Shown piece by piece: positions 13,927 to 62,891 of a DNA stretch of 64,000 nt. The notes below the pieces were generated by a model. The model was not told where the DNA came from. It searched no databases and saw nothing but the letters and a program-made list of their open reading frames with translations. A program made the translations under genes and the position numbers. The stretch lies in NCBI GenBank assembly GCA_043802745.1, contig JAZDKU010000015.1, positions 1,358 to 65,357 on the forward strand, written 5' to 3'. Each line of letters starts with the position of its first letter. Within the stretch, counting starts at the first letter, position 1. The stretch is from a bacterium. GTDB taxonomy: Bacteria; Patescibacteriota; Minisyncoccia; Minisyncoccales; CG1-02-41-26.

Positions 13927-13950
13927 TTTTCGGATTTCGGATTTCGGATT
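13927..13950. repeat. tandem heptamer (ATTTCGG)x3, intergenic
   Basis: tttcggatttcggatttcgg; same unit recurs at 16345-16372 and inside uvrA. Confidence 0.7.
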
Positions 13951-13957
13951 TTTTTAA

Positions 13958-14575: not shown

Positions 14576-14582
14576 TGCTTGA

Positions 14583-14608
14583 TTCCTAATTCCTAATTCT
14601 TAATTCTT
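14583..14608. repeat. tandem heptamer (TAATTCY)x4 just 3' of groEL stop
   Basis: ttcctaattcctaattcttaattcttg. Confidence 0.7.
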
Positions 14609-16292: not shown

Positions 16293-16344
16293 CTAAACCA
16301 GAATTCCTAATAAATGCCTAAATGCCTAATTCCCAATTTTTCGG

Positions 16345-16372
16345 ATTTCGGATTTCGAGCTTCGGGTTTTAA
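16345..16372. repeat. tandem heptamer (ATTTCGG)x3 in groES-groEL spacer
   Basis: tttcggatttcggatttcgagcttcgg. Confidence 0.65.
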
Positions 16373-16845: not shown

Positions 16846-19722
16846 TCAACTCCCTGCGCTACCTCGCAAATATTTTCCTGTCCAGCTGGTTTTGTTTTGG
16901 CTAATTTGTGTTGGTGTGCCTTCAGCTACAATCTGTCCGCCTTTTTCTCCGCTATCTGGGCCCAAGTCAACAATCCAATCAGCCTGATTAGCCAAATCCA
17001 TATTATGTTCAATAATAATTACTGTATTACCCTTATCAACTAAGGCTTTTAAAACAAACAAAAGCTTGTTTGTATCGTCTGGATGCAAGCCAGTGGTTGG
17101 CTCATCAAGAATATATAATGTTTTACCCGTAGATTTCTTTGACAGCTCAGTGGCTAATTTTATCCTTTGCGCTTCCCCGCCCGACAAAGAAGTAGCTGAC
17201 TGGCCAAGCTCAACATAAGAAAGCCCAACCTCGCTTAATGTTTGTAATTTTTGACTTAAAACTGGTATGTTTTTGAAAAACTCCAAGGCCTCCTCAACTG
17301 TCATATTTAAAACATCAGCAATTGATTTTCCTTTGTAATCCACCTCCAAAGTCTCTCGATTATATCTTTTGCCATGGCATTCCTGACACTGCACAAAAAC
17401 ATCAGGCAAAAAATACATTTCAATCTTTTTTACGCCTTGGCCTTCACATGCCTCGCATCTACCACCCCTAACATTAAAACTAAACCTGCCCAATTTAAAA
17501 CCTCGAACTCTTGCTTCTTTTGTTTTAGCAAAAATATCTCTAATATAATTGAAAGCGCCCGTATAGGTGGCTGGATTGCTACGAGGCGTGCGACCAATCG
17601 GGGATTGGTCAACCAGAACAACTTTGTCTAAAAACTCTGTACCCAAAATGCTATCGTGCAGGCCAATAATATCTTTTGACCGATAAAACTTTTGATACAA
17701 GGCTTTAGCCAAAATATCATTAATCAAGCTACTCTTGCCAGACCCCGAAACCCCTGTCACGCAGACAAATTTACCAAGCGGAATTTTAACATCAATATTT
17801 TTTAAATTATTCTCCTTCGCCCCTTTTATTTCTAAGTATCTTTGTTTTGAAATTTGATTTTTTGAATTTTGGGTTTGTTTAGAGTTTAAGATTTCGGATT
17901 TAGAATTTCTGGCAGAAATTATTTTTCTGCCAGAGAGGTATTCACCTGTAAGAGTCCTCGAGCTTAACAATTGTTTCGGCGTTCCCTCAAAAATAACCCT
18001 ACCCCCGTGCTTGCCAGCTCCAGGGCCAATATCAATAATCCAATCAGCTGATTTAACTGTTAAAGGATCGTGCTCAACCACAATCACTGAATTACCAACA
18101 TCTCTTAATTCCTTTAAAGTTACAATTAGCTTACTCTGGTCTCTGGGGTGCAAGCCAACTGATGGCTCGTCTAAAATATATAAAACCCCAGTTAGTTTTG
18201 AACCAATTTGCGTGGCTAATCTTGCTCTTTGCTCTTCCCCGCCCGACAATGTTTCAGTTTCTCTGGATAGGGTTAAATAATCCAAGCCCACGGAAACCAA
18301 AAACCCCAAACGGCTAACGATTTCTTTAATTAAAGGCTGGGCTATTTTTAAATGTTCTTGAGAAAAGTTTTTTGTTAAATTTTCAAAAAACTTTTTAGCT
18401 TCAATTGACGGCATATCTGAAACATCAGCAACTGATTTACCAGCAATTTTTACGGCCAGAGATTCTTTGTTCAGGCGCTTGCCTTGACATTTTTCACACA
18501 CACGAGAAACCATGTAGCGCTGGATTTCTTCCTTAGCCCAATCAGAATCTGTTGCCCAATATCGCCTTTGCAAATTAGTGATTACTCCTTCAAACCCTTC
18601 GCTATTGCCGTATAAAATTAAATCCAAAATTTCTGGCCTTAAATTTTTAATTGGCTCATCAAGAGAAAATTTATACTCATCCGCCAAATCAGACAAAACA
18701 CTAAAATAATAACCCTGCCTGCCAACCTTATGGCTGGCTCTAGCCCAAGGAAAAATCGCACCCTCTGCAATAGAAAGATTCTTATTGGGAATAACTAAGT
18801 CTGGAGAAACTTCTAATTTTTTACCAAGTCCTTGGCAATTCTTGCAAGCTCCAAAAGGCGAGTTAAAAGAAAATAATCTTGGCTCAATTTCTGGCAAAGA
18901 AACTTCGCAATAATCGCAAGCAAAGTGTTCACTAAAGATTAAATCTGCTGATTTAATCTTTTGATTCATGGTTGATGATTCATGACTCACGATGACTGCT
19001 CCATTGCCAAGTCGCAAGGCAATTTCTAAAGAATCAACTAACCGAGATTTCTCTAAGTCTTTATCTAAAACTAATCTGTCAACCACGATTTCAATGCTGT
19101 GCTTTTTCTGCCTGTCCAAATCTCTTTCTACTGCTTCGTCTAATCGTTGAATAACTCCATCAATTCGCGCTCGCACAAACCCGGCTTTTTGCGCTTCTAC
19201 TAAAACTGCTTTGTGCTCGCCTTTTTTGGCTTTAACAGCCGGACCTAAAATATTAATTTCGCTGTTCTTTGGCAGGCTCAAAATATTTTTAACGATTTGG
19301 TCGATTGTTTGTTTTTTTACTTCACGGTTGCAATTTGGGCAATAGGGCGTGCCTACTCGACTAAACAAAACTCTCAAATAATCGTAAATTTCAGTCATTG
19401 TGCCCACTGTGGACCTTGGATTGTGAGATGATTTTCTTTGGTCTATAGAAATGGCTGGGGAGATGCCTTCTATTTTATCAACATCTGGTTTTTGCATCAC
19501 GCCTAAAAACTGGCGAGCATAAGAGGATAAACTTTCCACATATCTTCTTTGGCCTTCAGCATACAAAGTATCAAAAGCCAAACTGGATTTGCCCGAGCCA
19601 GAAACGCCAGTGATAACCACGAGCTTGTTTTTGGGAATGTCCAAATCAATATTTTTCAAATTGTGCACTCTCGCCCCGCGTATGGAAATATAATTTTGTG
19701 GATTTTTTATTTTTGTTGCCAT
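16846..19722 (-). CDS. uvrA: excinuclease ABC subunit A (UvrA)
   Basis: Two ABC ATPase halves (GVSGSGKSSL x2), zinc-finger CxxC modules, signature LSGGE; start taken at MATKIKNPQNYISIRGARVHNLKNI. Confidence 0.95.
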   Translation of the reverse strand: MATKIKNPQNYISIRGARVHNLKNIDLDIPKNKLVVITGVSGSGKSSLAFDTLYAEGQRRYVESLSSYARQFLGVMQKPDVDKIEGISPAISIDQRKSSHNPRSTVGTMTEIYDYLRVLFSRVGTPYCPNCNREVKKQTIDQIVKNILSLPKNSEINILGPAVKAKKGEHKAVLVEAQKAGFVRARIDGVIQRLDEAVERDLDRQKKHSIEIVVDRLVLDKDLEKSRLVDSLEIALRLGNGAVIVSHESSTMNQKIKSADLIFSEHFACDYCEVSLPEIEPRLFSFNSPFGACKNCQGLGKKLEVSPDLVIPNKNLSIAEGAIFPWARASHKVGRQGYYFSVLSDLADEYKFSLDEPIKNLRPEILDLILYGNSEGFEGVITNLQRRYWATDSDWAKEEIQRYMVSRVCEKCQGKRLNKESLAVKIAGKSVADVSDMPSIEAKKFFENLTKNFSQEHLKIAQPLIKEIVSRLGFLVSVGLDYLTLSRETETLSGGEEQRARLATQIGSKLTGVLYILDEPSVGLHPRDQSKLIVTLKELRDVGNSVIVVEHDPLTVKSADWIIDIGPGAGKHGGRVIFEGTPKQLLSSRTLTGEYLSGRKIISARNSKSEILNSKQTQNSKNQISKQRYLEIKGAKENNLKNIDVKIPLGKFVCVTGVSGSGKSSLINDILAKALYQKFYRSKDIIGLHDSILGTEFLDKVVLVDQSPIGRTPRSNPATYTGAFNYIRDIFAKTKEARVRGFKLGRFSFNVRGGRCEACEGQGVKKIEMYFLPDVFVQCQECHGKRYNRETLEVDYKGKSIADVLNMTVEEALEFFKNIPVLSQKLQTLSEVGLSYVELGQSATSLSGGEAQRIKLATELSKKSTGKTLYILDEPTTGLHPDDTNKLLFVLKALVDKGNTVIIIEHNMDLANQADWIVDLGPDSGEKGGQIVAEGTPTQISQNKTSWTGKYLRGSAGS
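17861..17935. repeat. in-frame insertion in uvrA inter-domain linker: degenerate TTTGAAA/GATTTCG heptamers plus 11-bp perfect hairpin (tctggcagaaa/tttctgccaga)
   Basis: Seen in sequence; encodes SKSEILNSKQTQNSKNQISKQ within UvrA. Confidence 0.6.
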
Positions 19723-25152: not shown

Positions 25153-25238
25153 GCCGAGGTGATGGAACTGGCTAGACATGTAGGTCTCAAAAACCTATGG
25201 CCGAAAGGCCGTGAGGGTTCGACTCCCTCTCTCGGCAC
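25153..25238 (+). tRNA. tRNA-Leu (anticodon CAA), type II
   Basis: Acceptor GCCGAGG/TCTCGGC, D-stem ATG/CAT, anticodon stem TAGGT/ACCTA loop CTCAAAA, variable arm GGCCGAAAGGCC, T-arm GAGGG TTCGACT CCCTC. Confidence 0.85.
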
Positions 25239-26106: not shown

Positions 26107-26237
26107 AGAGTTTAGGGGGTATTACACCCTGTGAAGTAAAATTTGAGTACAAATTTTAATTTTAAATTTATTAAAATTTAAAATTACTTCACGGGGTAGT
26201 GATTTTACTACTAAATTTTTGATTAGGCCTCAAAAAT

Positions 26238-28730
26238 TTATTGAAAATCTACTACGAAATTTATTAGTTTATTTTGCACGAAAACAACCTTTTTAATTGT
26301 TTGGCCTTTCAGCCATTTATTTATCTTTTCATCCTGTTTGGCAATTTCTAAAGCTTGCCCTTGACTTGCTTCTGCTTCAACTTCCACAACTCCTCTGGCT
26401 TTGCCATTGATTTGCACCACTATCTTCACCCTATCTTCAAAAAGCCACTCTTCTTCTGGTTTTGACCATTGTTCTAAAAATATACTATCATTATTTCCTA
26501 ACCGATGCCACAATTCCTCTGCTATATGGGGGGCAAACGGCGAAACAATAATCAAAAATCTTTCTAAATCTTTTTTAGACAGAAAACCTTCCTGCAAATC
26601 TTTTTGAGTCCACCATAATCCGATAAAACCCATCAAACAACTAATTGCCGTATTAAACTTCATTTGCTCAATGTCCTCTGAAACTTTTTTAATTCTCAAT
26701 TCAAGCGATACCTTCAGCTCTCTAAATTTTATTTCTTTGGGAAATTCTTTTGAAAGAGAGTCGTTAACCAACAACCATATTCTTTCTAAAAATTTTCGCG
26801 CACCAATTATAGCTTCTGTATTCCATGCGATTGCTTGGTCAAAGGGCCCCATAAACATTTCGTAAATTCTTAAAGTATCAGCTCCATATTCTTTCACAAT
26901 ATCATCAGGATTTATCACGTTGCCCTTACTCTTGCTCATTTTCACCCCCCCCTCCGCCAAAATTAACCCCACATTACGCAATTTTAAAAACGGCTCATCA
27001 AAACTAATTAAACCCTTTCTAAAAAGAGCTTTAGTAAAAAACCGAGCATATAAAAGATGCAAAACCGCATGCTCTGCTCCCCCCACATATAAATCTACTG
27101 GTAGCCAATATTTAATTTTTTCTAAGCCAGCAAACTCATTTTTATTTTGATAATCAAGATAACGAAAAAAATACCAAGACGAGCAAACAAAAGTGTCCAT
27201 TGTATCAGATTCTCGCTTTGCTTGTCCGCCGCATTGCGGGCATTTAACATTATGAAAATCCTTAGACTTTGTTAGGGGCGACTCGCCTGTTGGCACAAAA
27301 TCAACATCTGTTGGTAATAACACTGGCAAATCTTTTTCTAACACAGCTTGCTCCCCGCATTTGTCGCAATAAATAATAGGAATAGGGGCGCCCCAATATC
27401 TTTGCCTAGAAACCAGCCAATCCCGCATCCTATAATTTACTTTTTTCTCAGCTATTTTTTTACTAGCCAGCCACTGCCCAATACTTTCTATAGCTTCATT
27501 CGAGGCAATCCCATTAAATTGTTCTGAATTTGTTAAAATGCCTTCTTCTTCCCAACACTCTGCCTCTAATCTAACGCAATCCTTCTTACCCATAGCAAAA
27601 TCAACAGCATTAACTAAAGTAGCGCTCAACTCTGGTGGCAGAATAACCTTTGGACAGGGCAACCCATACTTTTTTGCAAACTCAAAGTCACGAGCGTCGT
27701 GAGCTGGCACAGCCATAATAGCGCCAGTGCCATAGCCAGACAAAACATAGTCAGCCACAAAAATCGGAATTTCTTTTCCATTGGCTGGGTTTATGGCCAT
27801 AATACCTTCTAGTTTTACACCTGTCTTATCCCTAACATCTGCCTGCCTATCTCTCTCGCTTTTTTTCTTTGCTACTTCAACATACTCTTTCACCTCCTTT
27901 AGATTTAAGATTTTAGATTTAAGATTTAAGATTATTTCATGTTCTGGAGCCACCACTAAATAAGTGCACCCGAATATAGTATCAATTCTTGTTGTGAACA
28001 CATTTATTTCAAATCTTGAATCATGAATCTTGAATCTTATTTCATGCCCAGTGCTTTTTCCAATCCAATTTTTTTGCATTATTTTAATTGGTTCTGGCCA
28101 ATCAATTTTGTCCAAGCCAGCCAAAAGCTCTTCGTTAAAATCCGTAATTTTAAAAAACCACTGCTCTAAATCTTTTTGGCTAACCTCGCTACTGCACCTT
28201 TCACACTTGCCATCTTGGGCTTGCTCATTAGCTAAAACTGTTTGGCAAGAATCGCACCAATTAACAGAGGCTTTGGCTTTATACGCCCAACCATTTTTAT
28301 AAAGAAAAAGAAAAAACCATTGTGTCCATTTGTAATATTCGGGACTTGAAGTGTCTATTTCTCTTTCCCAATCATAAGAAAATCCTAATGACTTAATTTG
28401 TTCTTTAAAATAAGCTATATTTTTGTGCGTGCTTTCGTTTGGGTGGACTTTAGTTTTAATAGCATAGTTTTCTGCTGGCAAGCCAAAAGCATCCCAACCA
28501 ATTGGATGGAGCACATTAAAACCGCTCATCCGCTTATATCGAGAAATAATATCAGTGGCTGTATATCCCTTTGGGTGGCCCACATGCAAACCAGCCCCGG
28601 AAGGATAGGGAAACATATCCAAACAATAAAACTTAGCTTTGTTGCCAAAATCCTCAGCCTTATTTAACCCTTGCTCTTCCCAAAACTTTTGCCATTTGGA
28701 TTCAATTTTATCTGGCTCGTAATTATTCAT
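26238..28730 (-). CDS. leuS: leucyl-tRNA synthetase
   Basis: HVGHPKGY (HIGH), KMSKSKGN, CP1 editing domain. Confidence 0.95.
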   Translation of the reverse strand: MNNYEPDKIESKWQKFWEEQGLNKAEDFGNKAKFYCLDMFPYPSGAGLHVGHPKGYTATDIISRYKRMSGFNVLHPIGWDAFGLPAENYAIKTKVHPNESTHKNIAYFKEQIKSLGFSYDWEREIDTSSPEYYKWTQWFFLFLYKNGWAYKAKASVNWCDSCQTVLANEQAQDGKCERCSSEVSQKDLEQWFFKITDFNEELLAGLDKIDWPEPIKIMQKNWIGKSTGHEIRFKIHDSRFEINVFTTRIDTIFGCTYLVVAPEHEIILNLKSKILNLKEVKEYVEVAKKKSERDRQADVRDKTGVKLEGIMAINPANGKEIPIFVADYVLSGYGTGAIMAVPAHDARDFEFAKKYGLPCPKVILPPELSATLVNAVDFAMGKKDCVRLEAECWEEEGILTNSEQFNGIASNEAIESIGQWLASKKIAEKKVNYRMRDWLVSRQRYWGAPIPIIYCDKCGEQAVLEKDLPVLLPTDVDFVPTGESPLTKSKDFHNVKCPQCGGQAKRESDTMDTFVCSSWYFFRYLDYQNKNEFAGLEKIKYWLPVDLYVGGAEHAVLHLLYARFFTKALFRKGLISFDEPFLKLRNVGLILAEGGVKMSKSKGNVINPDDIVKEYGADTLRIYEMFMGPFDQAIAWNTEAIIGARKFLERIWLLVNDSLSKEFPKEIKFRELKVSLELRIKKVSEDIEQMKFNTAISCLMGFIGLWWTQKDLQEGFLSKKDLERFLIIVSPFAPHIAEELWHRLGNNDSIFLEQWSKPEEEWLFEDRVKIVVQINGKARGVVEVEAEASQGQALEIAKQDEKINKWLKGQTIKKVVFVQNKLINFVVDFQ
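27901..27935. repeat. in-frame (AGATTTA)x5 heptamer array in leuS ending ...atttcatg
   Basis: Encodes HEIILNLKSKILNLKE. Confidence 0.8.
28012..28039. repeat. in-frame (AATCTTG)x4 heptamer array in leuS ending ...atttcatg
   Basis: Encodes HEIRFKIHDSRFEI; paralogous to the array at 27901. Confidence 0.8.
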
Positions 28731-29568
28731 AGTTCAATTTAAACAAATTTTTAGCGTTTTGGGTAGTGGTTTGAGCAATTTTCTCCAAACTTTCGCCTCT
28801 TATTTCGGCAATTTTTTGAGCAATGTATTTTACAAAAATCGGTTCATCGCGATCTTGCTGGCCGCCTTCGCCTTGCGGGCTAAGGCGTGCAGAAGGCGGG
28901 CAAAGAAACGGGCAATCTGTTTCCAAAAGCATTCTTTCCAGAGGCATTTTTTTAATTGTTTCTGCTAAATCCATTTTGAAAATAATTCCATTAAAGCCTA
29001 AATAAAAGCCGAGCCCCATATACTGTTGTGCCTCCTCCCAGCTCCCTGTAAAACAATGCACTACACCCCTCCCCCCTCCTAATTCATAATTCTTAATTCT
29101 TAATTCTTCTAGCAGGTCTTGATGGGCTTTTCGGCAATGTAGGATTACAGGCAAATTTAATTCTTTTGCCAAATCTAATTGTTTTAAAAAAACTTGTTTT
29201 TGCTTGTCTTTAAAAATTCTGGCCTTTTCTTTTCCTTTTGGCTCGTTCCAATAATCCAAACCAATTTCTCCTATAGCCACCACTCCCTTTTCTTTGGCTA
29301 ACTCTCTGTATTTTTCAATATCTAATTCTTCTAGTCTATCCTCGTCTAATTGACTTAAGTCAATAACGCAATTGATTGGATGCAAGCCAACAGAAGCAAA
29401 AACACCCTCTTTATGTTGTTGGGCTATTTTCACGGCTAATTGCGAGGTTTTATAGTTTGAGGAAGCGTTTATTATCCAAGTATCTTGCTCTAGGCTTTTT
29501 TTTATAACCTCATCCCTGTCCTCGTCAAACGCCTTAAAATTCAAATGGCTGTGGGTATCAATTAGCAT
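28723..29568 (-). CDS. tatD: TatD-family metal-dependent hydrolase/DNase
   Basis: MLIDTHSHLNF..., conserved His/Glu/Asp metal ligands. Confidence 0.85.
   Translation of the reverse strand: MLIDTHSHLNFKAFDEDRDEVIKKSLEQDTWIINASSNYKTSQLAVKIAQQHKEGVFASVGLHPINCVIDLSQLDEDRLEELDIEKYRELAKEKGVVAIGEIGLDYWNEPKGKEKARIFKDKQKQVFLKQLDLAKELNLPVILHCRKAHQDLLEELRIKNYELGGGRGVVHCFTGSWEEAQQYMGLGFYLGFNGIIFKMDLAETIKKMPLERMLLETDCPFLCPPSARLSPQGEGGQQDRDEPIFVKYIAQKIAEIRGESLEKIAQTTTQNAKNLFKLNYE
29078..29108. repeat. 31-nt element cctaattcataattcttaattcttaattctt in-frame in tatD (encodes ELRIKNYELG); identical copy in ileS at 43119-43149
   Basis: Exact identity seen in sequence. Confidence 0.85.
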
Positions 29569-29569
29569 A

Positions 29570-31015
29570 TTAGGCTAGTCTTGGAAACAAAGGTTCGCTT
29601 TTGTTGGTTTTTATTTGTTCTAAAATTTTCTCTGAAGTTTGGGGCATAAAGGGCGCAAGCATCTCAGCGATGCTACAAATAACAAATAACAAATAACAAA
29701 TAACTTTTTCATTTTTAGTTTTTAGTTTTTCATTTCCTTCTTCCCATGGCTTTTCTGTGGCCATTATTTTATCGCAAACCCCGATCAACTCCCAAACAGC
29801 TCCCAAGGCCTCGTCAATTTTTAAATCTTTAAGCGCTATATTGTACTTATCTTTTGCCTGTTTCACCTCGCTTCCGCCCCACTCCTCGGCTTGGGGCCGA
29901 GGGGTGGGACGTAGTGCCTTGTATTTACTTGCAAGAGTTACAACTCTAGCAACCAAATTACCAAGGCCGCTAGCCAAGTCTGAATTATATTTTTCATCCA
30001 AGCGAACAAGCGAAACATCTCCGTCATTGCCAAAGGGAAATTGGGTTAAAAGTAAATACCTAGTAGCATCAACACCATATTTGTCTATTAAATCATTGGG
30101 GTCAACCACATTGCCGATTGTTTTGGACATTTTTTGGCCATCAATAGTGAAATAACCATGGCAAAAAACCTGTTTTGGCAACTGGTCAACAGCGTCTTCG
30201 CCATAATAAGCTAGCAACAAGGCTGGCCACATAATACAATGAAATTTTAGAATATCACGGCCGACTAATTGCAAGTCCATTGGCCAAAATTCAGTTTTGC
30301 CTAAATTCTGCAGAGCAGTCCAATAATTAAGCAAAGCGTCTACCCACACATAAATTGTCTGGCTTTCCTCCCATGGCAACTTAATGCCCCAAGAAACGCT
30401 TTTACGAGAAATAGAAATATCGTCAAGCCCCTGCTTTATCACGCCCAAAACCTCGCTTTTAGCATTTTCTGGCATTATTAAAATTTTATCTTGTTCTATT
30501 AGTTCTTGAATCTTTGGCAATAATTGCCTTAACTTAAAAAACCAATTCTCTTCAGCCACGTCTTGGGGCTCACATTTATGGTCTGGGCATTTGCCCTCAA
30601 CCAGATCTTTATCAGTCACAAACTTTTCACAACCCACACAATACTTGCCCGCATACTCGCCCTCATAAACAAAACCATTATTTTTTAATACTGTTAAAAA
30701 TTCCTGCACTTTTTCCTCGTGCGGTTTGTCCGTGGTGCGAATAAAGTATGAGTAGTCAATGTTTAAATTTTCCCAAGCTTTTTTAAATAAATCTGAAACT
30801 TCATCGCAAAATTCTTTTGGGGTTTTGTTGGCTTTTTGGCTAGCTTCAAAAATTTTAGCCCCATGCTCATCAGTGCCTGTTAGGAAAAAGACCTCTTTAC
30901 CGCCTATCTTATGATAGCGAGTCAAAACATCAACTGCCAAAGTAGTATAGGCATGGCCCAGATGTGGGCGTGAGTTCACATAATATATTGGGGTGGTTAA
31001 GTAAATTTTATTCAT
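29570..31015 (-). CDS. metG: methionyl-tRNA synthetase
   Basis: PIYYVNSRPHLGHAYTT (HIGH region), KMSKT, zinc-knuckle CVGCEKF..CPDHKC. Confidence 0.95.
   Translation of the reverse strand: MNKIYLTTPIYYVNSRPHLGHAYTTLAVDVLTRYHKIGGKEVFFLTGTDEHGAKIFEASQKANKTPKEFCDEVSDLFKKAWENLNIDYSYFIRTTDKPHEEKVQEFLTVLKNNGFVYEGEYAGKYCVGCEKFVTDKDLVEGKCPDHKCEPQDVAEENWFFKLRQLLPKIQELIEQDKILIMPENAKSEVLGVIKQGLDDISISRKSVSWGIKLPWEESQTIYVWVDALLNYWTALQNLGKTEFWPMDLQLVGRDILKFHCIMWPALLLAYYGEDAVDQLPKQVFCHGYFTIDGQKMSKTIGNVVDPNDLIDKYGVDATRYLLLTQFPFGNDGDVSLVRLDEKYNSDLASGLGNLVARVVTLASKYKALRPTPRPQAEEWGGSEVKQAKDKYNIALKDLKIDEALGAVWELIGVCDKIMATEKPWEEGNEKLKTKNEKVICYLLFVICSIAEMLAPFMPQTSEKILEQIKTNKSEPLFPRLA
29674..29732. repeat. adjacent in-frame heptamer arrays (CAAATAA)x4 and (TTTTTAG/TTTTTCA)x4 in metG C-terminal region
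   Basis: Encodes KLKTKNEKVICYLLFVICSI. Confidence 0.75.
29873..29911. repeat. GC-rich near-palindromic element in-frame in metG (encodes RPTPRPQAEEWGG), same coding orientation as topA copy
   Basis: rc reads cgtcccacccctcggccccaagccgaggagtggggcgg. Confidence 0.85.
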
Positions 31016-32356: not shown

Positions 32357-32430
32357 AAAAAAGTGATTGAGTCATTGAGTGACTAAGTGATTAAGCTTCT
32401 TAATCACTTGATGACTTGATGACTTAGTGA
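32351..32430. promoter_or_regulatory. 5' leader/promoter module of rsmI, 44 nt identical to htpX leader
   Basis: See 11449-11530. Confidence 0.5.
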
Positions 32431-33474: not shown

Positions 33475-34766
33475 ACTCTCATTAACTTTTGCAATTGGTT
33501 TTCGTTTTTATGCGGACCAATAATTGATAGATTTAAGCTTTGTTTCTTGAAGATTTCTTTGGCTAGAGCCCTAACTTCGCTTGCTTTTACTTTATCAATT
33601 TTGGCACACTCATCTTTTAATGTCAAAATCTTGCCCGTTAAAAGTTCTTGGCCAGCATAAAAAGAAGCTAGAGCATCCGAACTCTCCAAGCTCAAAGTTA
33701 AATTTCCTTTTAAATAATCTTTGGCTTTTTTAAGCTCGCTTTCTGCCACAGTTACTTGAGCTAAATTTTTATATTCTTTTAAAATCATGGCAATAGCTTT
33801 AGCTAAAGCAGTGTGGGGCACTCCAGCTTGAGTAACCAAATAACCGCTATCAGTAAAACTTTCCGCATCTGTTTTAATATAATAAGCCAATCCATTTTTT
33901 TCCCGCACCTTAATGAAAAGTCGAGAGCTCATATTGCCCCCCAAGATAGTGGCCAATACTTCTTGCACATAAATTTTAGGACTAAACAAATCAAAAGCCC
34001 TAACCCCTAAGCAAAAATGAGTTTGGTCTGTTTCTTTAAACTTTAAATGCATTTGTGGCTCTTTTTGCCCCTCAACAACCCTTATTTTCCCTTCTGGTCT
34101 TTGCTTGTTGATAACTCTAAACTTTCTTTTGATGTCTTCTGTCATTTTAACTTGGTTAAAATTACCAGAAACGCAAACAATTGTATTGCTGGCAGAATAA
34201 TGGTTTTTAATATAATCAATAAAATCTTTTCTTTGAACTTTTTTTAAATTATCTTTAGTACCTATAATTTCCCAGCCAGCTGGCTGGTCACCATACAAGA
34301 GCGTTTCAAATAAATCTCTTATATGCCTCACTGGCGTATCTAAATACATATTTAACTCTTCAATAATAACGCCTCGCTCTTTCTCTATTTCTTTGCTATC
34401 AATTTTAGAGTTTAAAAAAATATCTGAAACCCAATCCAAGGCCAAATCAGTATGTTTGGAATCAACTTTAGCAAAATAGCCAGTGTATTCTTTGCTGGTA
34501 AAAGCATTGTAAAAACCGCCCACCCTATCTAAGGTTTCAGAAATTGCCAAAGTGTTTGGCCTTTTTTTTGTGCCTTTAAAAAACATATGCTCCACAAAAT
34601 GAGAAATGCCATTATTCTTCTTATTTTCATACTTACTGCCAGCCCCTACCACAGCCAAAACCGTAACAGCTTGAGTGTTTTTATTGGGCACCAACATTAT
34701 ACGCAAACCATTATCTAAAATTATTTTTTTATACATAGAATTAATTTTCAATTTACGAATTTTCAA
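33471..34766 (-). CDS. M16-family (insulinase/pitrilysin-like) zinc peptidase
   Basis: Inverted zinc motif HFVEHMFFKGT (HxxEH). Confidence 0.85.
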   Translation of the reverse strand: MKIRKLKINSMYKKIILDNGLRIMLVPNKNTQAVTVLAVVGAGSKYENKKNNGISHFVEHMFFKGTKKRPNTLAISETLDRVGGFYNAFTSKEYTGYFAKVDSKHTDLALDWVSDIFLNSKIDSKEIEKERGVIIEELNMYLDTPVRHIRDLFETLLYGDQPAGWEIIGTKDNLKKVQRKDFIDYIKNHYSASNTIVCVSGNFNQVKMTEDIKRKFRVINKQRPEGKIRVVEGQKEPQMHLKFKETDQTHFCLGVRAFDLFSPKIYVQEVLATILGGNMSSRLFIKVREKNGLAYYIKTDAESFTDSGYLVTQAGVPHTALAKAIAMILKEYKNLAQVTVAESELKKAKDYLKGNLTLSLESSDALASFYAGQELLTGKILTLKDECAKIDKVKASEVRALAKEIFKKQSLNLSIIGPHKNENQLQKLMRV

Positions 34767-34776
34767 TTTTCAAATA
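34744..34776. repeat. AATTTTC heptamer element at prmC 3' end / M16 peptidase 5' end; near-identical to element inside recO (41930-41976)
   Basis: aattttcaatttacgaattttcaattttcaaa vs recO aattttcaatttacaattttcaattttcaaa. Confidence 0.7.
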
Positions 34777-41608: not shown

Positions 41609-42331
41609 TTACCCTTTTTCCACTAAAAAATCAAAGTATGCAGTAAAAGCCTGGTTTAGATTTTGCAAATCTTTTTCCAAAATATTTAATCTCTCTACTT
41701 TCTCAATTGGCTCTTTGATAAAAAATCTTATAAGCTTCACCGCCCCCACTGTGATTTCCTGAGCAGGAAAATCACAGCACTTCCCGCATATCACTCCTCC
41801 GTGCTCTGGTGATAAAAAAAATATCTCTGGCAAAAGTTTTTTAGCGCAAACAGGGCAAGTGTAGAGCTCAGGAGAATAACCTAAAATCGCCAATAGGTTC
41901 CAGGCAAAGTGGTAATAAATAATTTTCAATTTACAATTTTCAATTTTCAAACAATTTTCAATTTTTTGAAATACTCCAAACAGTAAATTCCAAACGTTTT
42001 CATCGCTTTGTTCTTTTATTGTCAAGCGACACATGATTTCAGAGATTTTAATTATCAAAGAAAGCGCTCCTGGATTTTTTCTTGTTTCTGAAAACTTGTC
42101 AGTTATAATGGCATCAGTTAGAGTTTTTTGTTTTTTGCCTTGGATAAATTCGAGTTCAATAAAATAAAAAACATCAATGCCTGCTCTTAATTTTGATGTT
42201 ATTTTACGAATTGCCCTACCAACCACTTCTATCTTGCCAAAGTCCTGTGTGTATAAAATAAAAATCTGGTCTGCCTCCCCAGAATCTCTTTTAGATAAAA
42301 CAATTCCTTTTGTTCGATAATGCTGATGCAT
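41609..42331 (-). CDS. recO: DNA repair protein RecO
   Basis: N-terminal OB fold (TKGIVLSKRDSGEADQIFILYT), C-terminal CxxC...CxxC zinc finger. Confidence 0.8.
   Translation of the reverse strand: MHQHYRTKGIVLSKRDSGEADQIFILYTQDFGKIEVVGRAIRKITSKLRAGIDVFYFIELEFIQGKKQKTLTDAIITDKFSETRKNPGALSLIIKISEIMCRLTIKEQSDENVWNLLFGVFQKIENCLKIENCKLKIIYYHFAWNLLAILGYSPELYTCPVCAKKLLPEIFFLSPEHGGVICGKCCDFPAQEITVGAVKLIRFFIKEPIEKVERLNILEKDLQNLNQAFTAYFDFLVEKG
41930..41976. repeat. in-frame (AATTTTC)n heptamer array in recO (encodes KIENCLKIENCKLKII)
   Basis: Seen in sequence. Confidence 0.75.
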
Positions 42332-42752: not shown

Positions 42753-45673
42753 ATTACTTTCCCATCTATTTTAAATTCTGACTGGGCTAAGAATTCTCCT
42801 TCTTTATTTTTGTTTTCTTTTATTTCTTTTGAGCGAGTGGTTGATAAAATTTCGGCTTTGTTTTTATCAAAAATTTTCTCTAAACTCTTTTCAGCAGAGT
42901 AACTAATAACAATATTTGTGTCGTTTGGCGTTAGCCCGGCTTGTTTGCGCAAGCTTTGGATATTTCTAATAATTTCCCGCACTGTGCCCTCTTCTTTTAA
43001 CTCCTCGGTCATAGTAGTGTCCAGCTCAACCCCACCAGTAATATCATCGCTAAACAAAACCTCTTTAACATTGACCTCATCTTTAATTAATTCCAAAAAT
43101 TCTTTTTTCCCCTTTATTCCTAATTCATAATTCTTAATTCTTAATTCTTTTAAGGCTTGTCTCACCCCAATACCAAGCTCGGCTCTTTTGGCCAAAACCA
43201 AAGAAACAACATCCCTAACCTCCTGCATATCTTTTTCTAATTTTTCATCAATAAGTTTCTTATCCACTTTAGGCCAATCGCACAGATGAACCGACCGAGG
43301 GCAGCCCTCGGGGTAGCACCCCGAGGGCTGCCCTCGGGACACTAACTGCTGATAAATATCTTCAGCTAAAAATGGCATAAAAGGAGTGGTAAGTTTGGCA
43401 ATAGTTATTAAAACATCATAAAAAGTTTGCTCTGCTTCTTGAAATCTTTTGCGCGATCTTCGCACATACCAAAGCGACAAATCATTAATCCAAAAATTTT
43501 CAATAGCCAACGTGGCTTTCATTACGTCAAATTTATCTAAGCTATCTGTTGCCTCTTTTATTAAATTATTTAATTTTGAAATTATCCATCTATCTAAAAC
43601 ATTCTTGATTCTTGATTCTTGATTCTTGATTCTTGATTCTGACGCGTATGTTAAAAAGAAGGTTACGCAATTTGTTAAAGTTAAGATTTTTCTTTCAGTT
43701 TCTTTGGCCACATTATAGCCAAACCTCATATTGTTGGCTGGATTTTGTACCACATACATCCATCTCATCACGTCAGCTCCGATTTTTTCTACTGCCTCGT
43801 CAAACCAAATAGCATTGCCTTTTGACTTGTGCATTTCCTCGCCCTTTTCATCCACTACTGAAGCAAACCCTAATAAATTCTTAAACGGCATTTCATTTTC
43901 CAAAACTTGGCTCATCACCAACAAAACATAAAACCAATTTTTAAATTGACCGGGAAAACTCTCGCACACTAAATCAGCTGGGAACCATTTGTCCCACTCT
44001 CCTTTATTATTATGAAAATAGCCGGGAATGGTTGAAAATGGCACAATACCCGCATCCAGCCATGGAGTACCAACATCTAAAATTCTTGGCACAACTTCAC
44101 TGCACTTTGAGCATTTTATCTTTACTGAATCAATCCAAGGCCGATGAAGTGAATTTCCCTCGAATTCTTTCCAACCCTCCACTGCCCTTTCTTTTAATTC
44201 TCCCATTGAGCCAATAACATCAAAATTTTTACACTTAGAGCATTCATAAATCGGCAGGGCCAAACCCCAATATCTTTTTTTAGATATTAGCCAATCGCGC
44301 ATATTCAGGAGCCAATCAAGCTCTCTTTCTAAGCAAAAACCAGGAACCCAGTTTATTTTTCTGGCAATAGTCATTAGTGGTGCTTTTAGATAATCCATAG
44401 CAATATACCACTCATCAACCAAGCGAAAAATTAACTCACTTTTACATCTCCAGCAAGTTGGATACCTGTGTTTATAATCTTCTATTTTATAAACTAAGTT
44501 ATTGGTTTTTAATCTTTCAAAAATAAGCTCACGAACAAACTCTTCGCCCACAAAATGCCCGGTTAAAGCATCAAAGCCTTCGGCGTATTTACTTTCATCG
44601 TTAGTTGGATTAACAACTGGCAAGCCTTGTTCTTTCCCTAAAGCAAAATCTTCCTGGCCACACCCTGGGGCAGAGTGCACAACTCCAGTGCCCTCTTCTT
44701 GCGTTACATCTTTCCATAAAATAACTTTGTGCTCATAACTTTTTAAAGCCTCCCTTACAGCGGGCAATTCATCAAAAAGCCCAGTATATCTCTTGCCTTC
44801 AAGCGCCCTACCTTCAAATACTTCCAAAATTTGACCATTTTCAATTAAACTAGCTTTGTCTTTTAATAAGATATAAATTTCGCCAGTTTTTGGGTCAGCT
44901 ACTTTAGCATAAATCAAATCCGGATGAACTGATAAAAAAACATTGGCCACTAATGTCCATGGAGTGGTTGTCCAGGCTAAAAAATATGTTTCATTTTCGC
45001 CCATAACTGGCAGTTTAAAATAAATAGCCTTATGGGTTATTTCTTTATATTCCTCAGTTAAAATTTCGTGCTGGGAAATAGCAGTGCCACATCTCGGACA
45101 CCAAGGCACCACATCATGGCCTTTGTATAAAAGCCCTTTTTCTTTACACCTCTTCAGGAAATGCCAAATAGCGTAATTATTTTCTGGGGACATTGTGTAA
45201 TACGAATGGCTTTGCTCCATCCACTCGCCTTTTTCATCAAAATCTGTTTGCCAGTTGCCCCAATCCCGCAACATGCCCAATCTTATGGACTGCTCGGTTT
45301 GGATTTTTGAATATTTATGCACCCGCTCCTTACATTTGTTGACAAAATTAGCAATGCCGTATCTTTCAATGTCCTTTTTGTTGCGAAAGCCAAGTTCTTT
45401 TTCCACTTCTACTTCCACCCAAAGCCCTTGGCAATCAAAACCATTTTGGAAGCGCTCGCTATAGCCTTGCATGGCCCTATACCGCTGAAATAAGTCTTTG
45501 TAAGTCCTGCCCCAAGCATGATGAACGCCCATGGGGTTATTAGCAGTTATCGGACCATCTAAAAAACTCCAAGGCTTTCCTTTTTTATTTTTCTCTTTCA
45601 GTTTTTCTAAAAGTTTTATATCCTCCCAAAACTTTAAAGTTTCCTTTTCTTTTTTTACAAAATCATTTTCCAT
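42728..45673 (-). CDS. ileS: isoleucyl-tRNA synthetase
   Basis: HIGH-region (PITANNPMGVHHAWGRTYKD), KMSKSKGN, CP1 editing domain, 981 aa. Confidence 0.95.
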   Translation of the reverse strand: MENDFVKKEKETLKFWEDIKLLEKLKEKNKKGKPWSFLDGPITANNPMGVHHAWGRTYKDLFQRYRAMQGYSERFQNGFDCQGLWVEVEVEKELGFRNKKDIERYGIANFVNKCKERVHKYSKIQTEQSIRLGMLRDWGNWQTDFDEKGEWMEQSHSYYTMSPENNYAIWHFLKRCKEKGLLYKGHDVVPWCPRCGTAISQHEILTEEYKEITHKAIYFKLPVMGENETYFLAWTTTPWTLVANVFLSVHPDLIYAKVADPKTGEIYILLKDKASLIENGQILEVFEGRALEGKRYTGLFDELPAVREALKSYEHKVILWKDVTQEEGTGVVHSAPGCGQEDFALGKEQGLPVVNPTNDESKYAEGFDALTGHFVGEEFVRELIFERLKTNNLVYKIEDYKHRYPTCWRCKSELIFRLVDEWYIAMDYLKAPLMTIARKINWVPGFCLERELDWLLNMRDWLISKKRYWGLALPIYECSKCKNFDVIGSMGELKERAVEGWKEFEGNSLHRPWIDSVKIKCSKCSEVVPRILDVGTPWLDAGIVPFSTIPGYFHNNKGEWDKWFPADLVCESFPGQFKNWFYVLLVMSQVLENEMPFKNLLGFASVVDEKGEEMHKSKGNAIWFDEAVEKIGADVMRWMYVVQNPANNMRFGYNVAKETERKILTLTNCVTFFLTYASESRIKNQESRIKNVLDRWIISKLNNLIKEATDSLDKFDVMKATLAIENFWINDLSLWYVRRSRKRFQEAEQTFYDVLITIAKLTTPFMPFLAEDIYQQLVSRGQPSGCYPEGCPRSVHLCDWPKVDKKLIDEKLEKDMQEVRDVVSLVLAKRAELGIGVRQALKELRIKNYELGIKGKKEFLELIKDEVNVKEVLFSDDITGGVELDTTMTEELKEEGTVREIIRNIQSLRKQAGLTPNDTNIVISYSAEKSLEKIFDKNKAEILSTTRSKEIKENKNKEGEFLAQSEFKIDGKVIWLALCLY
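43119..43149. repeat. 31-nt element identical to tatD copy, in-frame in ileS (ELRIKNYELG)
   Basis: cctaattcataattcttaattcttaattctt. Confidence 0.85.
43295..43337. repeat. 43-nt GC-rich perfect palindrome (20-bp arms, 3-nt loop; each arm itself a hairpin) in-frame in ileS
   Basis: ccgagggcagccctcggggt-agc-accccgagggctgccctcgg; encodes SRGQPSGCYPEGCPRSV. Confidence 0.85.
43603..43642. repeat. in-frame (TTGATTC)x6 heptamer array in ileS (encodes ESRIKNQESRIKN)
   Basis: Seen in sequence. Confidence 0.8.
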
Positions 45674-51342: not shown

Positions 51343-51690
51343 ATGGTAAGAATAAAAAGAGGAACAATCGCCCATAAGCGCAGACGACATTTGTTGGAAA
51401 ATACAAAGGGTTTTAAATGGGGTAGAAAATCAAAATTCAGCCAGGCCAAACAAGCCATGCAAAAGGCCTGGACTTATGCCTATCGAGATAGAAAGAAAAA
51501 CAAATCCAACCGCCGGGCTTTGTGGCAAATAAACATTAACGCAGCTGTTAGGCATTTTGGCCTTTCATACAGCAAGTTTATTGCTGGCCTAAAAAAGAAT
51601 GGCATTGAGCTTGATAGAAAGGTTTTAGCCCAACTAGCCAAAGACCAACCTGAAATTTTTGAAAAAATCGTTGAGAAAGCTAAATCCTAG
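51343..51690 (+). CDS. rplT: 50S ribosomal protein L20
   Basis: [32 protein letters not shown]... Confidence 0.9.
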
Positions 51691-51724
51691 ATTTACGATT
51701 CAAGATTCATGATTCAAGAATAGA
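51691..51724. repeat. intergenic (GATTCAW)x4 heptamer array
   Basis: gatttacgattcaagattcatgattcaagaatag. Confidence 0.65.
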
Positions 51725-62570: not shown

Positions 62571-62594
62571 GAATTAAAAGTTTATAGTTTATAG

Positions 62595-62891
62595 TTAGTA
62601 GTTAATAGTAGACGAAGCAGTAGAAGTTGAAATTGTCTCGTCTAAAGTGGTTGTGCCAACTAGGCTTTCTATCATTTGGGTTATTTCTTGATTTGTTTGG
62701 TCAGTTATTTGCGTTGCCTCTTTGGCTTTATCAATAGCGCCCAAAGTATTTAGCCCCAAACCAACGTCAATGCCCTGACTAGCAAACTTATCCATTCTTG
62801 CTCTGGCATTATGACCAATAATAAAAGCCAACGGCACAGCAATTGCCATCAAAACCACCCCTGTTAAAATTATTTTCCAAATTTTTTCCAT
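62595..62891 (-). CDS. hypothetical small membrane-anchored protein
   Basis: 98 aa, N-terminal TM ILTGVVLMAIAVPLAFIIG. Confidence 0.4.
   Translation of the reverse strand: MEKIWKIILTGVVLMAIAVPLAFIIGHNARARMDKFASQGIDVGLGLNTLGAIDKAKEATQITDQTNQEITQMIESLVGTTTLDETISTSTASSTINY

What the first reader, a model, noticed from the sequence alone, without database searches (positions are those of the whole stretch)
27901..28039. Pervasive AT-rich tandem-heptamer micro-elements inserted in-frame in essential genes (two paralogous copies in leuS)
Throughout the window, 3-6 tandem copies of 7-nt units (AGATTTA, AATCTTG, TAATTCT, TTGATTC, AATTTTC, CAAATAA, TTTTTAG, ATTTCGG) occur inside leuS (twice, 110 nt apart, both ending …atttcatg), tatD, metG, ileS (twice), argS, uvrA and recO. 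The same units also occur intergenically (13927, 14583, 16345, 51691). In coding DNA the arrays are always a multiple of 21 nt or otherwise frame-preserving, and translate to Lys/Ile/Asn/Glu/Leu-rich 7-14-aa inserts. Heptamer units are not a multiple of three, so a one-unit slippage would frameshift an essential gene. Their persistence implies either strong constraint on copy number or that they are insertion footprints of a small mobile element rather than slippage-prone microsatellites.
Basis: seen in the sequence. Interest (0 to 1): 0.65.

Follow-up and report, generated by a model that had tools for sequence, protein, structure and literature searches.

The report
Seven-base repeats overwriting essential genes
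Short runs of a repeated 7-base unit do pepper the housekeeping genes of this candidate-phyla-radiation bacterium, but they look like self-homogenising microsatellite-type tracts that overwrite tolerant protein segments in place, not insertions left by a tiny mobile element.

Summary
The window (a Patescibacteria/CPR MAG, GC 37%) has 11 period-7 arrays of at least 21 nt against 0.19 expected; periods 5, 6, 8 and 9 have 0-2. They lie in leuS (two), tatD, metG (two), ileS (two), argS, recO, a degenerate tract in uvrA, and six intergenic sites.

The "in-frame insertion of a mobile micro-element" reading is not supported.
- Both leuS arrays, one ileS array and one metG array replace native segments with little or no length change. 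Net gains occur only in loops and linkers (tatD, argS, uvrA).
- Relatives carry arrays at the same leuS and ileS sites, in the same register, with different units.
- 106 arrays in 1.47 Mb of CPR DNA cover about 60 units.
- No termini, target duplications or transposase were found.
- Coding arrays mostly use stop-free units (62/77, against 12/58 strand readings of noncoding arrays), or deviate exactly at would-be stops.

Best explanation: heptanucleotide simple-sequence repeats made and homogenised in situ by 7-nt-register strand misalignment, then filtered by selection. Heptamer repeats are known in Geobacter, Xanthomonas and Nostoc, so this is a new variant.

Unexplained: the 7-nt period, the roughly four-unit size, and identical imperfect 29-32-mers in unrelated genes.

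The parts
27898..27933 (-). leuS site 1 array. Sense strand (AATCTTA/AATCTAA)x5, coding ILNLKSKILNLK (aa 266-278).
   Evidence: TRF; translation. Aligns to T. thermophilus LeuRS PLTLELAAPE-KREEV with a 1-aa length difference. AF2 helix/turn/helix, pLDDT 84-90. Relatives carry other units in the same register.
28012..28038 (-). leuS site 2 array. Sense strand (AAGATTC)x3.9, coding RFKIHDSRF (aa 231-240).
   Evidence: TRF. Gap-free alignment to solved LeuRS. AF2 beta-hairpin, pLDDT 79-87. The ancestral motif FKIKDS is already quasi-periodic.
29077..29108 (-). tatD array AAGAATTAAGAATTAAGAATTATGAATTAGGA, coding ELRIKNYELG.
   Evidence: 4-5 aa longer than the L001/L002 orthologues; shared with L004 apart from 3 substitutions.
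29675..29704 (-). metG array. Sense strand (GTTATTT)x4.3, coding VICYLLFVIC.
   Evidence: Same-length overwrite of VIADLLLVLRE/VIKDLLVVLGE in relatives.
29705..29735 (-). metG array. Sense strand (AAAAACT/AAAAATG), coding NEKLKTKNEK.
   Evidence: Conserved in L001 and L004; 6 aa absent in L002.
43112..43149 (-). ileS array (aa 842-854), a 32-mer identical to the tatD array, coding ELRIKNYELGIK.
   Evidence: Orthologues have LKIKNEKLKI, LKVKSAKFKV, LRIRNHELRI and similar at the same columns without gaps.
43601..43640 (-). ileS array (aa 678-691). Perfect sense-strand (AGAATCA)x5.7, coding SESRIKNQESRIKN.
   Evidence: TRF 100% matches. Aligns to a T. thermophilus linker that is 3 aa longer. The linker is of variable length in relatives and is full of array-type peptides.
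48786..48819 (-). argS array (AAGAATT/AGGAATT/AAGAATC), coding IELGIKNQELRI (aa 158-169).
   Evidence: About 5 aa longer than the solved ArgRS loop.
41921..41965 (-). recO array. Sense strand (GAAAATT)x6.9 at 75% matches, coding KIENCLKIENCKLKI.
17840..17910 (-). Degenerate heptamer-periodic tract in the uvrA inter-domain linker (ARNSKSEILNSKQTQNSKNQISKQ).
   Evidence: TRF 17845-17871, 71% matches; sequence. 14 aa longer than solved UvrA.
34743..34773 (-). Array (GAAAATT) across the last codons of prmC and the prmC / M16-peptidase junction.
   Evidence: The true M16 start is MYKK, as in the relatives.
13928..13951 (.). Intergenic array (TTTCGGA)x3.4, upstream of lemA.
14578..14608 (.). Intergenic array of the AAGAATT/AGGAATT family (on the - strand), 5 nt downstream of groEL.
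16339..16357 (.). Intergenic array (TTTCGGA)x2.7, upstream of groEL.
26151..26185 (.). Intergenic imperfect array (AAATTTA)x4.7, downstream of leuS.
51689..51719 (.). Intergenic array (AGATTCA). 23 nt are identical to the sense strand of leuS site 2.
62574..62609 (.). Array (TTAATAG-type, 82% matches) immediately upstream of the gyrA start codon.

Best explanation
These are heptanucleotide simple-sequence repeats: short tracts of about 3-5.5 units (21-40 nt). They arise and are kept homogeneous in situ by a local 7-nt-register strand-misalignment process, that is, slippage or realignment during replication or repair. This process is active in this and several other Patescibacteria lineages.

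The process acts everywhere in the genome. Natural selection then decides what remains.
- In intergenic DNA, tracts of any unit persist and can grow long.
- In genes, only tracts that keep the frame, avoid stop codons and sit in sequence-tolerant helices, hairpins and linkers survive.
- At length-constrained sites they therefore overwrite the native sequence without changing its length. In loops and linkers they add a few to 14 residues.
- They are translated as ordinary parts of the protein.

Unit changes spread through the whole tract (concerted evolution). Whole alleles can also be swapped by homologous recombination between strains.

Shown: the enrichment and period specificity, the in-place overlay, the conserved register, the selection signatures, the lineage patchiness and the short-term stability.

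Inferred: the molecular step (misalignment in a 7-nt register) and the reason for the 7-nt period and the four-unit size.
For: Period specificity:
- 11 arrays against 0.19 expected in the window.
- In 1.47 Mb of window plus 86 CPR leuS loci, the excess of perfect runs occurs only at lags 7 and 14, not at lags 4, 5, 8, 10, 11 or 13. That set holds 106 arrays. A near-identical subset, without two late-fetched loci, holds 101 arrays covering 61 distinct units.

In-place overlay:
- leuS site 2 has no gap and site 1 differs by 1-3 aa against solved LeuRS. Both are confidently structured in AF2.
- The ileS linker is shorter than the T. thermophilus one.
- metG (GTTATTT)x4 is aligned nucleotide for nucleotide with GTTATTGCTGATTTATTATTAGTTTTG of relatives.
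- The second ileS site is ungapped across 43 orthologues.

Seeding and register:
- Lineages without arrays carry KLKxxIxN and FKIKDS at the two leuS sites. In AT-rich codons these motifs are already quasi-7-periodic.
- 15 lineages share the same register. Their differences are all-or-none per unit position: 71 of 105 pairs at site 1 and 20 of 21 pairs at site 2 have p<0.05.
- Glycosyltransferase genes that are 85% identical carry (GAATTAT)n in one and (GGGTTTA)n in the other, at the same site and with the same length.

Selection filter:
- Array density in noncoding DNA is 2.9 times that in coding DNA (6.9 times in the window).
- Units are stop-free in 62 of 77 coding arrays against 12 of 58 strand readings of noncoding arrays.
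- All 28 predicted in-frame stops are broken. The mismatch rate elsewhere is 3.8%.
- Coding arrays reach at most 40 nt; noncoding arrays reach 120 nt.

Lineage effect: many CPR loci of equal GC content have none.

Precedent: heptameric repeats are reported as over-represented in many bacteria, with a polymerase-slippage hypothesis (Mrazek 2007, as cited in PMC4692102). Geobacter has four-unit heptanucleotide elements both inside and between genes (PMC2700814).

No mobile-element genes, Rfam hit or significant hairpin were found.
Against: - Identical imperfect 32-mers occur in tatD and ileS. The same 29-mer occurs in rplC, argS and glycosyltransferase genes of other organisms, with diverged flanks. 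This needs either a strong convergent 'attractor' or copying between loci.
- The tracts have sharp edges and a narrow size range, with a shoulder at 27-34 nt. There is no cryptic lag-7 signal outside them. This looks more like burst-like formation than gradual homogenisation.
- No +/-7n length polymorphism was seen in about 35 kb of 99.6-100% identical contig pairs or in ten LeuRS clusters. Ongoing slippage was therefore not observed directly.
- A single +/-7 step is lethal in these genes, so same-length turnover needs realignment or gene-conversion-type events that have not been demonstrated.
- The in-register difference test partly follows from both sequences being periodic.
Confidence: 0.6

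Rival explanations
1. Copy-and-paste micro-element or inter-locus gene conversion. Pre-formed heptamer cassettes, such as GAATTAAGAATTAAGAATTATGAATTAGG, are copied from one locus to another. The route could be ectopic recombination, uptake of short DNA, or an unknown insertion mechanism. The arrays would then be dispersed copies, not locally grown tracts.
For: - A 32-nt identical imperfect array sits in tatD and ileS of the window, whereas their orthologues in the L004 genome differ from it and from each other.
- A 23-nt identity links leuS site 2 and intergenic 51697-51719.
- The exact 29-mer occurs in 22 metagenome contigs in unrelated genes with sharp boundaries and diverged flanks.
- Units are shared more often within a locus (24%) than between loci (13%); permutation p about 0.002.
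- Strains 96% identical carry unrelated units at leuS site 1.
Against: - About 60 different units exist.
- Overlays of exactly the native length, in unrelated genes with no flanking homology, are hard to obtain by insertion.
- The register is conserved across lineages and is anchored on conserved codons.
- All coding 29-mer copies end on a conserved Gly / ELG seed.
- The L085/L086 swap extends about 30 nt beyond the array, as ordinary homologous recombination would.
- No termini, target-site duplications or mobile-element genes were found.
Confidence: 0.17
2. Functional cis-elements. The tracts are selected at DNA or RNA level, for example as binding arrays for a periodicity-reading protein, or as regulatory RNA elements as was proposed for the Geobacter four-heptanucleotide elements. 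On this view their periodicity is maintained by selection, not by mutation bias.
For: - Arrays can be better conserved than their flanks: the 29-mer is 100% identical in ArgRS and glycosyltransferase genes whose flanks differ by 12-40%.
- The size is narrow, about four units, as in Xanthomonas and Geobacter.
- Several intergenic arrays sit just upstream or downstream of genes (groEL, lemA, gyrA).
- The same gene sites recur across lineages.
Against: - About 60 unrelated units rule out a sequence-specific binder.
- Arrays occur in either orientation.
- There is no Rfam match. The only candidate hairpin is not significant, z = -0.74.
- Many CPR lineages lack the arrays altogether.
- The metG overwrite replaces conserved Asp and Glu residues, as a mutational drive would.
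Confidence: 0.12
3. Protein-level selection for seven-residue (heptad-like) peptide repeats in surface helices.
For: The tracts translate to K/I/N/E/L/R/Q/S-rich peptides with a 7-aa period, located in helices and hairpins.
Against: - Selection on a 7-aa repeat would give a 21-nt period, not a 7-nt period.
- The same tracts occur in intergenic DNA at higher density.
- The hydrophobic spacing is not a/d-like.
- Units differ freely between orthologues.
Confidence: 0.03
4. Chance in AT-rich DNA, or an assembly artefact.
For: The genome is AT-rich (GC 0.37). Two 29-mer hits in GC-rich contigs may be chimeras.
Against: - Markov and dinucleotide shuffles give about 0.04-0.5 against 11-27 observed.
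- Other periods show no excess.
- Arrays also occur in loci with GC 0.45-0.50.
- The same arrays appear in independent NCBI, JGI and ENA assemblies.
Confidence: 0.01

Closest known systems
Heptanucleotide 'long' simple-sequence repeats of prokaryotes (Mrazek, Guo & Shah 2007, as summarised in PMC4692102)
   Same: Head-to-tail 7-nt units, over-represented relative to other unit lengths, present in some lineages and absent in others, with slippage proposed as the cause.
   Different: Here they sit mostly inside essential genes (77 of 106) and overwrite native segments. They carry many AT-rich units per genome. No length polymorphism was seen. I could not read the 2007 paper itself.
Geobacter metallireducens elements of four tandem heptanucleotides (GGGACCG; also MTYCTGA x5) (PMC2700814)
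   Same: [quoted passage not shown]
   Different: Geobacter has one GC-rich consensus per family and the elements were interpreted as regulatory. Here there are dozens of units and evidence for in-situ origin.
Xanthomonas GGGAATC and Nostoc GGGGAYT repeats; cyanobacterial STRR heptamers (PMC4692102)
   Same: [quoted passage not shown]
   Different: Those repeats are G-rich, potentially G-quadruplex forming, mostly intergenic and under-represented in coding DNA. The CPR tracts are AT-rich and mostly coding. One relative (L100) does carry (GGGTTTA)n in a gene.
Rickettsia palindromic elements (RPE), from my own knowledge
   Same: Repetitive DNA found in frame inside essential protein genes and translated.
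   Different: RPEs are palindromic insertions of roughly 100-150 bp belonging to defined sequence families. These tracts are 21-40 nt tandem repeats, not palindromic, and usually not insertions. In-frame GC-rich inserts of unknown type do occur in relatives' LeuRS and IleRS, but they are a separate thing.
Phase-variable contingency loci (tetra- to heptanucleotide repeats in Haemophilus and Neisseria)
   Same: Unit length is not a multiple of three, the repeat lies inside an ORF, and one-unit slippage would shift the frame.
   Different: Contingency loci have long, hypervariable arrays in surface or modification genes. Here the arrays are short and length-stable, and sit in aminoacyl-tRNA synthetases and repair genes.

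Membership tests
Heptanucleotide simple-sequence repeat (long SSR) | Head-to-tail copies of a 7-nt unit, at least 3 copies | tested here: met
   TRF and lag scan: 17 tracts in the window, 3-6.9 copies.
Heptanucleotide simple-sequence repeat (long SSR) | Over-representation specific to the unit length, beyond composition | tested here: met
   11 against 0.19 expected. The excess occurs only at lags 7 and 14 in 1.47 Mb.
Heptanucleotide simple-sequence repeat (long SSR) | Unit sequence not fixed; many motifs | tested here: met
   61 canonical units among 101 arrays.
Heptanucleotide simple-sequence repeat (long SSR) | Copy-number change by slippage between close strains | tested here: inconclusive
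   No +/-7n indel in about 35 kb of 99.6-100% identical contig pairs or in ten LeuRS clusters. Length differences do exist between species in loops: uvrA +14 aa and the LeuRS C-terminal site +7-11 aa. No read-level data.
Miniature mobile element (MITE / RPE-like insertion) | Defined sequence family with conserved ends (terminal inverted repeats) and target-site duplication | tested here: not met
   About 60 units. The flanks of 24 copies of the same 29-mer are unrelated and show no duplication. The shared TTATTTCATG at leuS is the His-Glu-Ile codons.
Miniature mobile element (MITE / RPE-like insertion) | Present as extra DNA relative to orthologues (filled versus empty site) | tested here: not met
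   leuS, ileS and metG arrays have the same length as the native segments. Only small or linker gains occur in tatD, argS and uvrA.
Miniature mobile element (MITE / RPE-like insertion) | Cognate transposase or other mobilising gene | tested here: inconclusive
   None among the 40 window proteins scanned. The rest of the genome was not available.
Phase-variable contingency locus | Hypervariable repeat number that switches a non-essential (surface or modification) gene on and off | tested here: not met
   The hosts are aminoacyl-tRNA synthetases, uvrA, recO and tatD. No length variants were seen.
Geobacter-type four-heptanucleotide element | About four tandem heptamers, multicopy, both intragenic and intergenic | tested here: met
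   Size 3-5.5 units with a mode near 4-4.5; 77 coding and 29 noncoding; compare.
Geobacter-type four-heptanucleotide element | One conserved consensus shared by all copies in a genome | tested here: not met
   The window alone has at least 8 unit families.

The most novel reading that the evidence does not exclude
Some Patescibacteria, and other prokaryotes with four-unit heptamer elements, may possess an active and so far undescribed process that writes tracts of about 28 nt with a 7-nt period. One possibility is reiterative gap-filling or template switching by a particular polymerase or repair complex. Another is copying of pre-formed cassettes between loci. Such a process would repeatedly overwrite segments of essential genes and act as a directional mutational drive, remodelling proteins such as the class I aminoacyl-tRNA synthetases.
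Probability: 0.2. Interest if true: 0.8.

Novelty: new variant of a known kind. Interest (0 to 1): 0.5.

Why it matters
[quoted passage not shown] Examples are a beta-hairpin and a helix of the LeuRS editing domain, IleRS linkers and a MetRS helix.

- This is a clean natural example of mutational drive and concerted evolution acting inside conserved genes.
- It explains odd low-complexity "signature" peptides (ELRIKNYELG, KNQESRIK, FQFPISNFQ, KVQSAKCK) that recur in CPR proteins and can mislead alignment, phylogeny and domain annotation.
- It links CPR to the unexplained four-unit heptamer elements of Geobacter, Xanthomonas and Nostoc. That suggests a common mechanism, which the patchy lineage distribution makes testable by comparative genomics.

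Tried and rejected
- RNA hairpin between the two inverted leuS arrays: MFE -30.3 kcal/mol against -27.7 +/- 3.5 for shuffles, z = -0.74. Relatives do not keep complementary units at the two sites. Rejected.
- Genome-wide cryptic 7-nt periodicity: after masking the arrays, lag 7 is not raised (0.268 against 0.272-0.273 at neighbouring lags). The tracts are discrete.
- Exact-protein look-up of the window's LeuRS to obtain its own contig or strains: not on record. The 90% cluster has one member, so no population data exist for this species.
- Rfam at gathering thresholds: only tmRNA and two tRNAs.
- NCBIfam and Pfam scans for transposase, reverse transcriptase or nuclease drivers in the window: none.
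- AF2 of the whole LeuRS from an 18-sequence alignment: poor overall (mean pLDDT 48.7). Only the editing-domain region was usable. No fold search was run.
- Mrazek 2007 (PMC1895974) is not held. It is cited only through PMC4692102.
- Searches combining Patescibacteria or Parcubacteria with SSR or heptamer terms found no paper describing this.
- Protein-level scan for 7-aa periodicity: too insensitive, because the arrays are short.
- Shared flank CATGAAATA as an element terminus: rejected. It is the conserved Glu-Ile codons plus a His, and relatives do not share it.
Full report
**What the window is.** The 64-kb window has GC 0.34-0.41 and most genes lie on the - strand. The LeuRS it encodes is 100% identical to a protein annotated "MAG: leucine--tRNA ligase [bacterium]". 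Its nearest relatives (65-77% identity) are Pacebacteria/Patescibacteria MAGs. NCBIfam confirms leuS (26238-28730), tatD (28723-29568), metG (29570-31015), recO (41609-42331), ileS (42728-45673), argS (47640-49292), uvrA (16846-19734) and gyrA (60087-62570). The other genes scanned are ordinary CPR content, including groEL, topA, dprA, a P-type ATPase and NUDIX proteins. There is no transposase or reverse transcriptase.

- With my own lag scan, arrays of at least 21 nt number 11 at period 7. Periods 5, 6, 8 and 9 give 1, 2, 1 and 0. One hundred order-3 Markov simulations give a mean of 0.19 and a maximum of 2 at period 7.
- (AAGAATT)x3 with up to 3 mismatches occurs 13 times against 0.04 expected. 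A degenerate RRGAWTY x3 pattern occurs 27 times against 0.51 expected.
- The window is 92.6% coding, yet 6 of 17 tracts are intergenic. That is a roughly 7-fold higher density outside genes.
- After masking the tracts there is no residual lag-7 signal, so they are discrete objects.

- Coding arrays are 27-45 nt long, never 21 or 42.
- The uvrA "array" is a degenerate tract.
- The two leuS arrays have reverse-complementary units (arms 78-82% complementary).
- The shared flank TTATTTCATG is the codons His-Glu-Ile that precede both tracts.
- The predicted RNA pairing between the two leuS arrays is not significant (z = -0.74).

The 62574 array lies just upstream of gyrA.

**Are they insertions?** Mostly not.
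- Against solved LeuRS structures, site 2 (RFKIHDSRF) aligns without a gap. Site 1 (ILNLKSKILNLK) differs by 1 aa from T. thermophilus and by 3 aa from E. coli.
- In an AF2 model that is poor overall, the editing-domain region is confident (pLDDT 79-90). It shows site 2 as a beta-hairpin and site 1 as helix-turn-helix.
- Eighteen CPR LeuRS sequences are ungapped at site 1.
- The perfect ileS array (SESRIKNQESRIKN) aligns to a T. thermophilus linker that is 3 aa longer.
- The second ileS array is ungapped across 43 orthologues.
- In metG, (GTTATTT)x4.3 lines up base for base with GTTATTGCTGATTTATTATTAGTTTTG... of relatives. This turns VIADLLLVLRE into VICYLLFVICS with no length change.
- Net gains occur only where length is free: tatD +4-5 aa, argS about +5 aa, the uvrA inter-domain linker +14 aa, and a LeuRS C-terminal loop in relatives +7-11 aa.

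**How widespread is it?**
- Syntenic relatives (L001-L004) also show the period-7 excess.
- Eighty Patescibacteria leuS loci from species-representative genomes were added. The pooled 1.47 Mb holds 106 arrays. A near-identical subset, lacking two late-fetched loci, holds 101 arrays covering 61 canonical units.
- Periods 8-11 are essentially empty. Perfect-run excess appears only at lags 7 and 14, with a shoulder at 27-34 nt total length.
- Sizes are 3-5.5 units, with one array of 17 units.
- The trait is patchy. It is strong in the window's clade, in some Moranbacteria, Gribaldobacteria, Falkowbacteria and others, including loci of GC 0.45-0.50. It is absent from many loci of equal GC, including three complete genomes.

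**Same sites, different units.**
- Arrays occupy leuS offsets of about 690 and 800 nt in many distant lineages, each with its own unit.
- Lineages without arrays carry the protein motifs FKIKDS (site 2) and KLKxxIxN..EV (site 1). Written in AT-rich codons these are already quasi-7-periodic, which provides a seed.
- At site 1, fifteen lineages share one register, with AAT at the same codon positions. Pairwise differences are all-or-none per unit position. For example, the window and L007 differ at 6 positions, 5 of them the same unit position. Of 105 pairs, 71 have p<0.05; at site 2, 20 of 21 do.
- This test partly follows from both sequences being periodic. The conserved register, however, argues for in-situ evolution and against insertion of cassettes, which would arrive in arbitrary registers.
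- Glycosyltransferase genes that are 85% identical carry (GAATTAT)n in one and (GGGTTTA)n in the other, at one site and with the same length.
- Two Moranbacteria strains with 96% identical leuS carry (AAGAATC/T)x4 and (ATTGCAG)x4 at site 1. The 5' boundary is sharp and divergence is raised for about 30 nt on the 3' side. This looks like a short recombination import.

**Selection signatures.**
- In the unbiased set, 62 of 77 coding arrays use units with no stop codon in any frame of the sense strand. Only 12 of 58 strand readings of noncoding arrays do.
- Over the larger pooled set, 28 perfect-array in-frame stops are predicted and all 28 are broken by a deviant copy. The mismatch rate elsewhere is 3.8%. 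Examples are AAT-TAA changed to AAT-TAT in ELRIKN**Y**ELG and TCT-TAA changed to TCT-AAA in leuS site 1.
- Coding arrays stop at 40 nt, whereas noncoding arrays reach 46-120 nt.
- Tracts are stable in the short term. No indels occur at arrays in about 35 kb of 99.6-100% identical contig pairs, and there are no length variants within ten 90%-identity LeuRS clusters.

**The awkward facts.**
- tatD 29077-29108 and ileS 43114-43149 share an identical imperfect 32-mer. Their orthologues in the L004 genome differ from it and from each other.
- The 29-mer GAATTAAGAATTAAGAATTATGAATTAGG occurs in 22 metagenome contigs. It lies in rplC, the ArgRS N-terminal domain, several GT4 glycosyltransferases and noncoding long arrays. 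In coding DNA it is always read ELRIKNYELG, with unrelated or diverged flanks.
- In every coding case the tract ends on a conserved Gly. In GT4 enzymes the ancestral motif at that position appears to be ELG (my own knowledge of the family, not tested here), and the segment length looks native.
- I therefore favour convergence on an attractor: maximal periodicity, no in-frame stop, AT bias and an ELG seed. I cannot exclude copying between loci.
- Units are shared within a locus more often than between loci (24% against 13%, p about 0.002). That fits either genome-specific bias or ectopic conversion.
- (AAGAATT)x3 is also present in 58 IMG/VR contigs. In the GC-rich contigs examined it typically lies next to AT-rich or other heptamer tracts with different units.

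**Comparison with what is known.**
[quoted passage not shown] The stated hypothesis relates the unit length to the DNA segment held by the polymerase (Mrazek 2007, as cited in PMC4692102). The original paper is not held.
[quoted passage not shown] - I found no paper describing such tracts in Patescibacteria.
- The present case is therefore a new variant of a known kind. The tracts are AT-rich with many units, sit predominantly inside essential genes, and overwrite structured protein segments in place.

**Verdict.** The interpretation as in-frame insertions of a mobile micro-element is not supported. The tracts are best explained as heptanucleotide simple-sequence repeats generated and homogenised in situ and filtered by selection (confidence about 0.6). 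Copying between loci (about 0.17) and a cis-acting function (about 0.12) are the live rivals. Three things remain unexplained: why the period is 7 nt, why the size is about four units, and how same-length turnover proceeds in genes where a single +/-7 step would be lethal.

Noticed in passing
window 11441-11525 and 32341-32432 (- strand): Two intergenic leaders share a block of about 45 nt...TAATCACTTAGTCACTCAATGACTCAATCACTTTTTTATGTCT, that runs into the ATG of the downstream genes (an M48 peptidase at 10549-11454 and an rsmI-like methylase at 31658-32356). The block is built from 8-nt units AGTCAYYR in direct and inverted orientation, giving a hairpin followed by a T-run. It may be a shared regulatory leader or a dispersed repeat.
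   Followed up: partly
relatives: LeuRS P0007, P0016, P0017; IleRS P0172, P0174, P0177, P0184; glycosyltransferase in L100: GC-rich in-frame inserts translating to VILSQQAKNLGDPSARSPQDDK or SCHSE..EESQRSFGSTLRMTF sit at the same variable loops that hold heptamer tracts in other lineages. This is a different dispersed in-frame insert of unknown type; I did not check it for palindromic structure.
   Followed up: no
L087-L108 (metagenome contigs): The exact 29-mer shared by the window's tatD and ileS occurs in 22 contigs. It lies in rplC, the argS N-terminal domain, GT4 glycosyltransferases and long noncoding arrays. Two hits (L093, L098) are in contigs with GC 0.60-0.67 and may be chimeric assemblies or real AT-rich islands.
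   Followed up: partly
window leuS, ileS, metG, argS: Seven of the 11 coding tracts lie in the four class I aminoacyl-tRNA synthetase genes, which make up about 17% of coding DNA. The class II synthetase at 38549-39925 has none. A post-hoc binomial estimate from those two figures gives about 6e-4.
   Followed up: no
L085 vs L086 (Moranbacteria leuS, nt 873-945 of the gene): Strains 96% identical overall differ at about 55% of positions in a 70-nt block centred on the site 1 array. The 5' edge is sharp, falling at the APEH codon. This looks like a short recombination import.
   Followed up: yes
alignment A1 columns about 430-500 (window LeuRS aa about 358-425): A segment of about 66 aa (CPKVILPPELSATLVNAVDFAMGKKDCVRLEAECWEEEGILTNSEQFNGI...) is present in the window and some relatives. 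It is cleanly absent from about half of the closest LeuRS sequences.
   Followed up: no
window 13928-13951, 14578-14608, 16339-16357: groEL (14613-16271) and the neighbouring Zn-ribbon gene are bracketed by two (TTTCGGA)n tracts, with an AAGAATT-family tract between them.
   Followed up: no
L109-L166 (IMG/VR contigs); L055 7178-7297: (AAGAATT)x3 occurs in 58 virus-labelled contigs. It often directly abuts tracts of another heptamer, for example (AAGAATT)6 followed by (CACTAAC)5 in L126. L055 holds a 120-nt noncoding heptamer array.
   Followed up: partly
window 50158-50523: A tmRNA gene (tag ATYTYEPAYALA), plus tRNA-Ser(GGA) at 10382-10468 and tRNA-Leu(CAA) at 25153-25238.
   Followed up: yes
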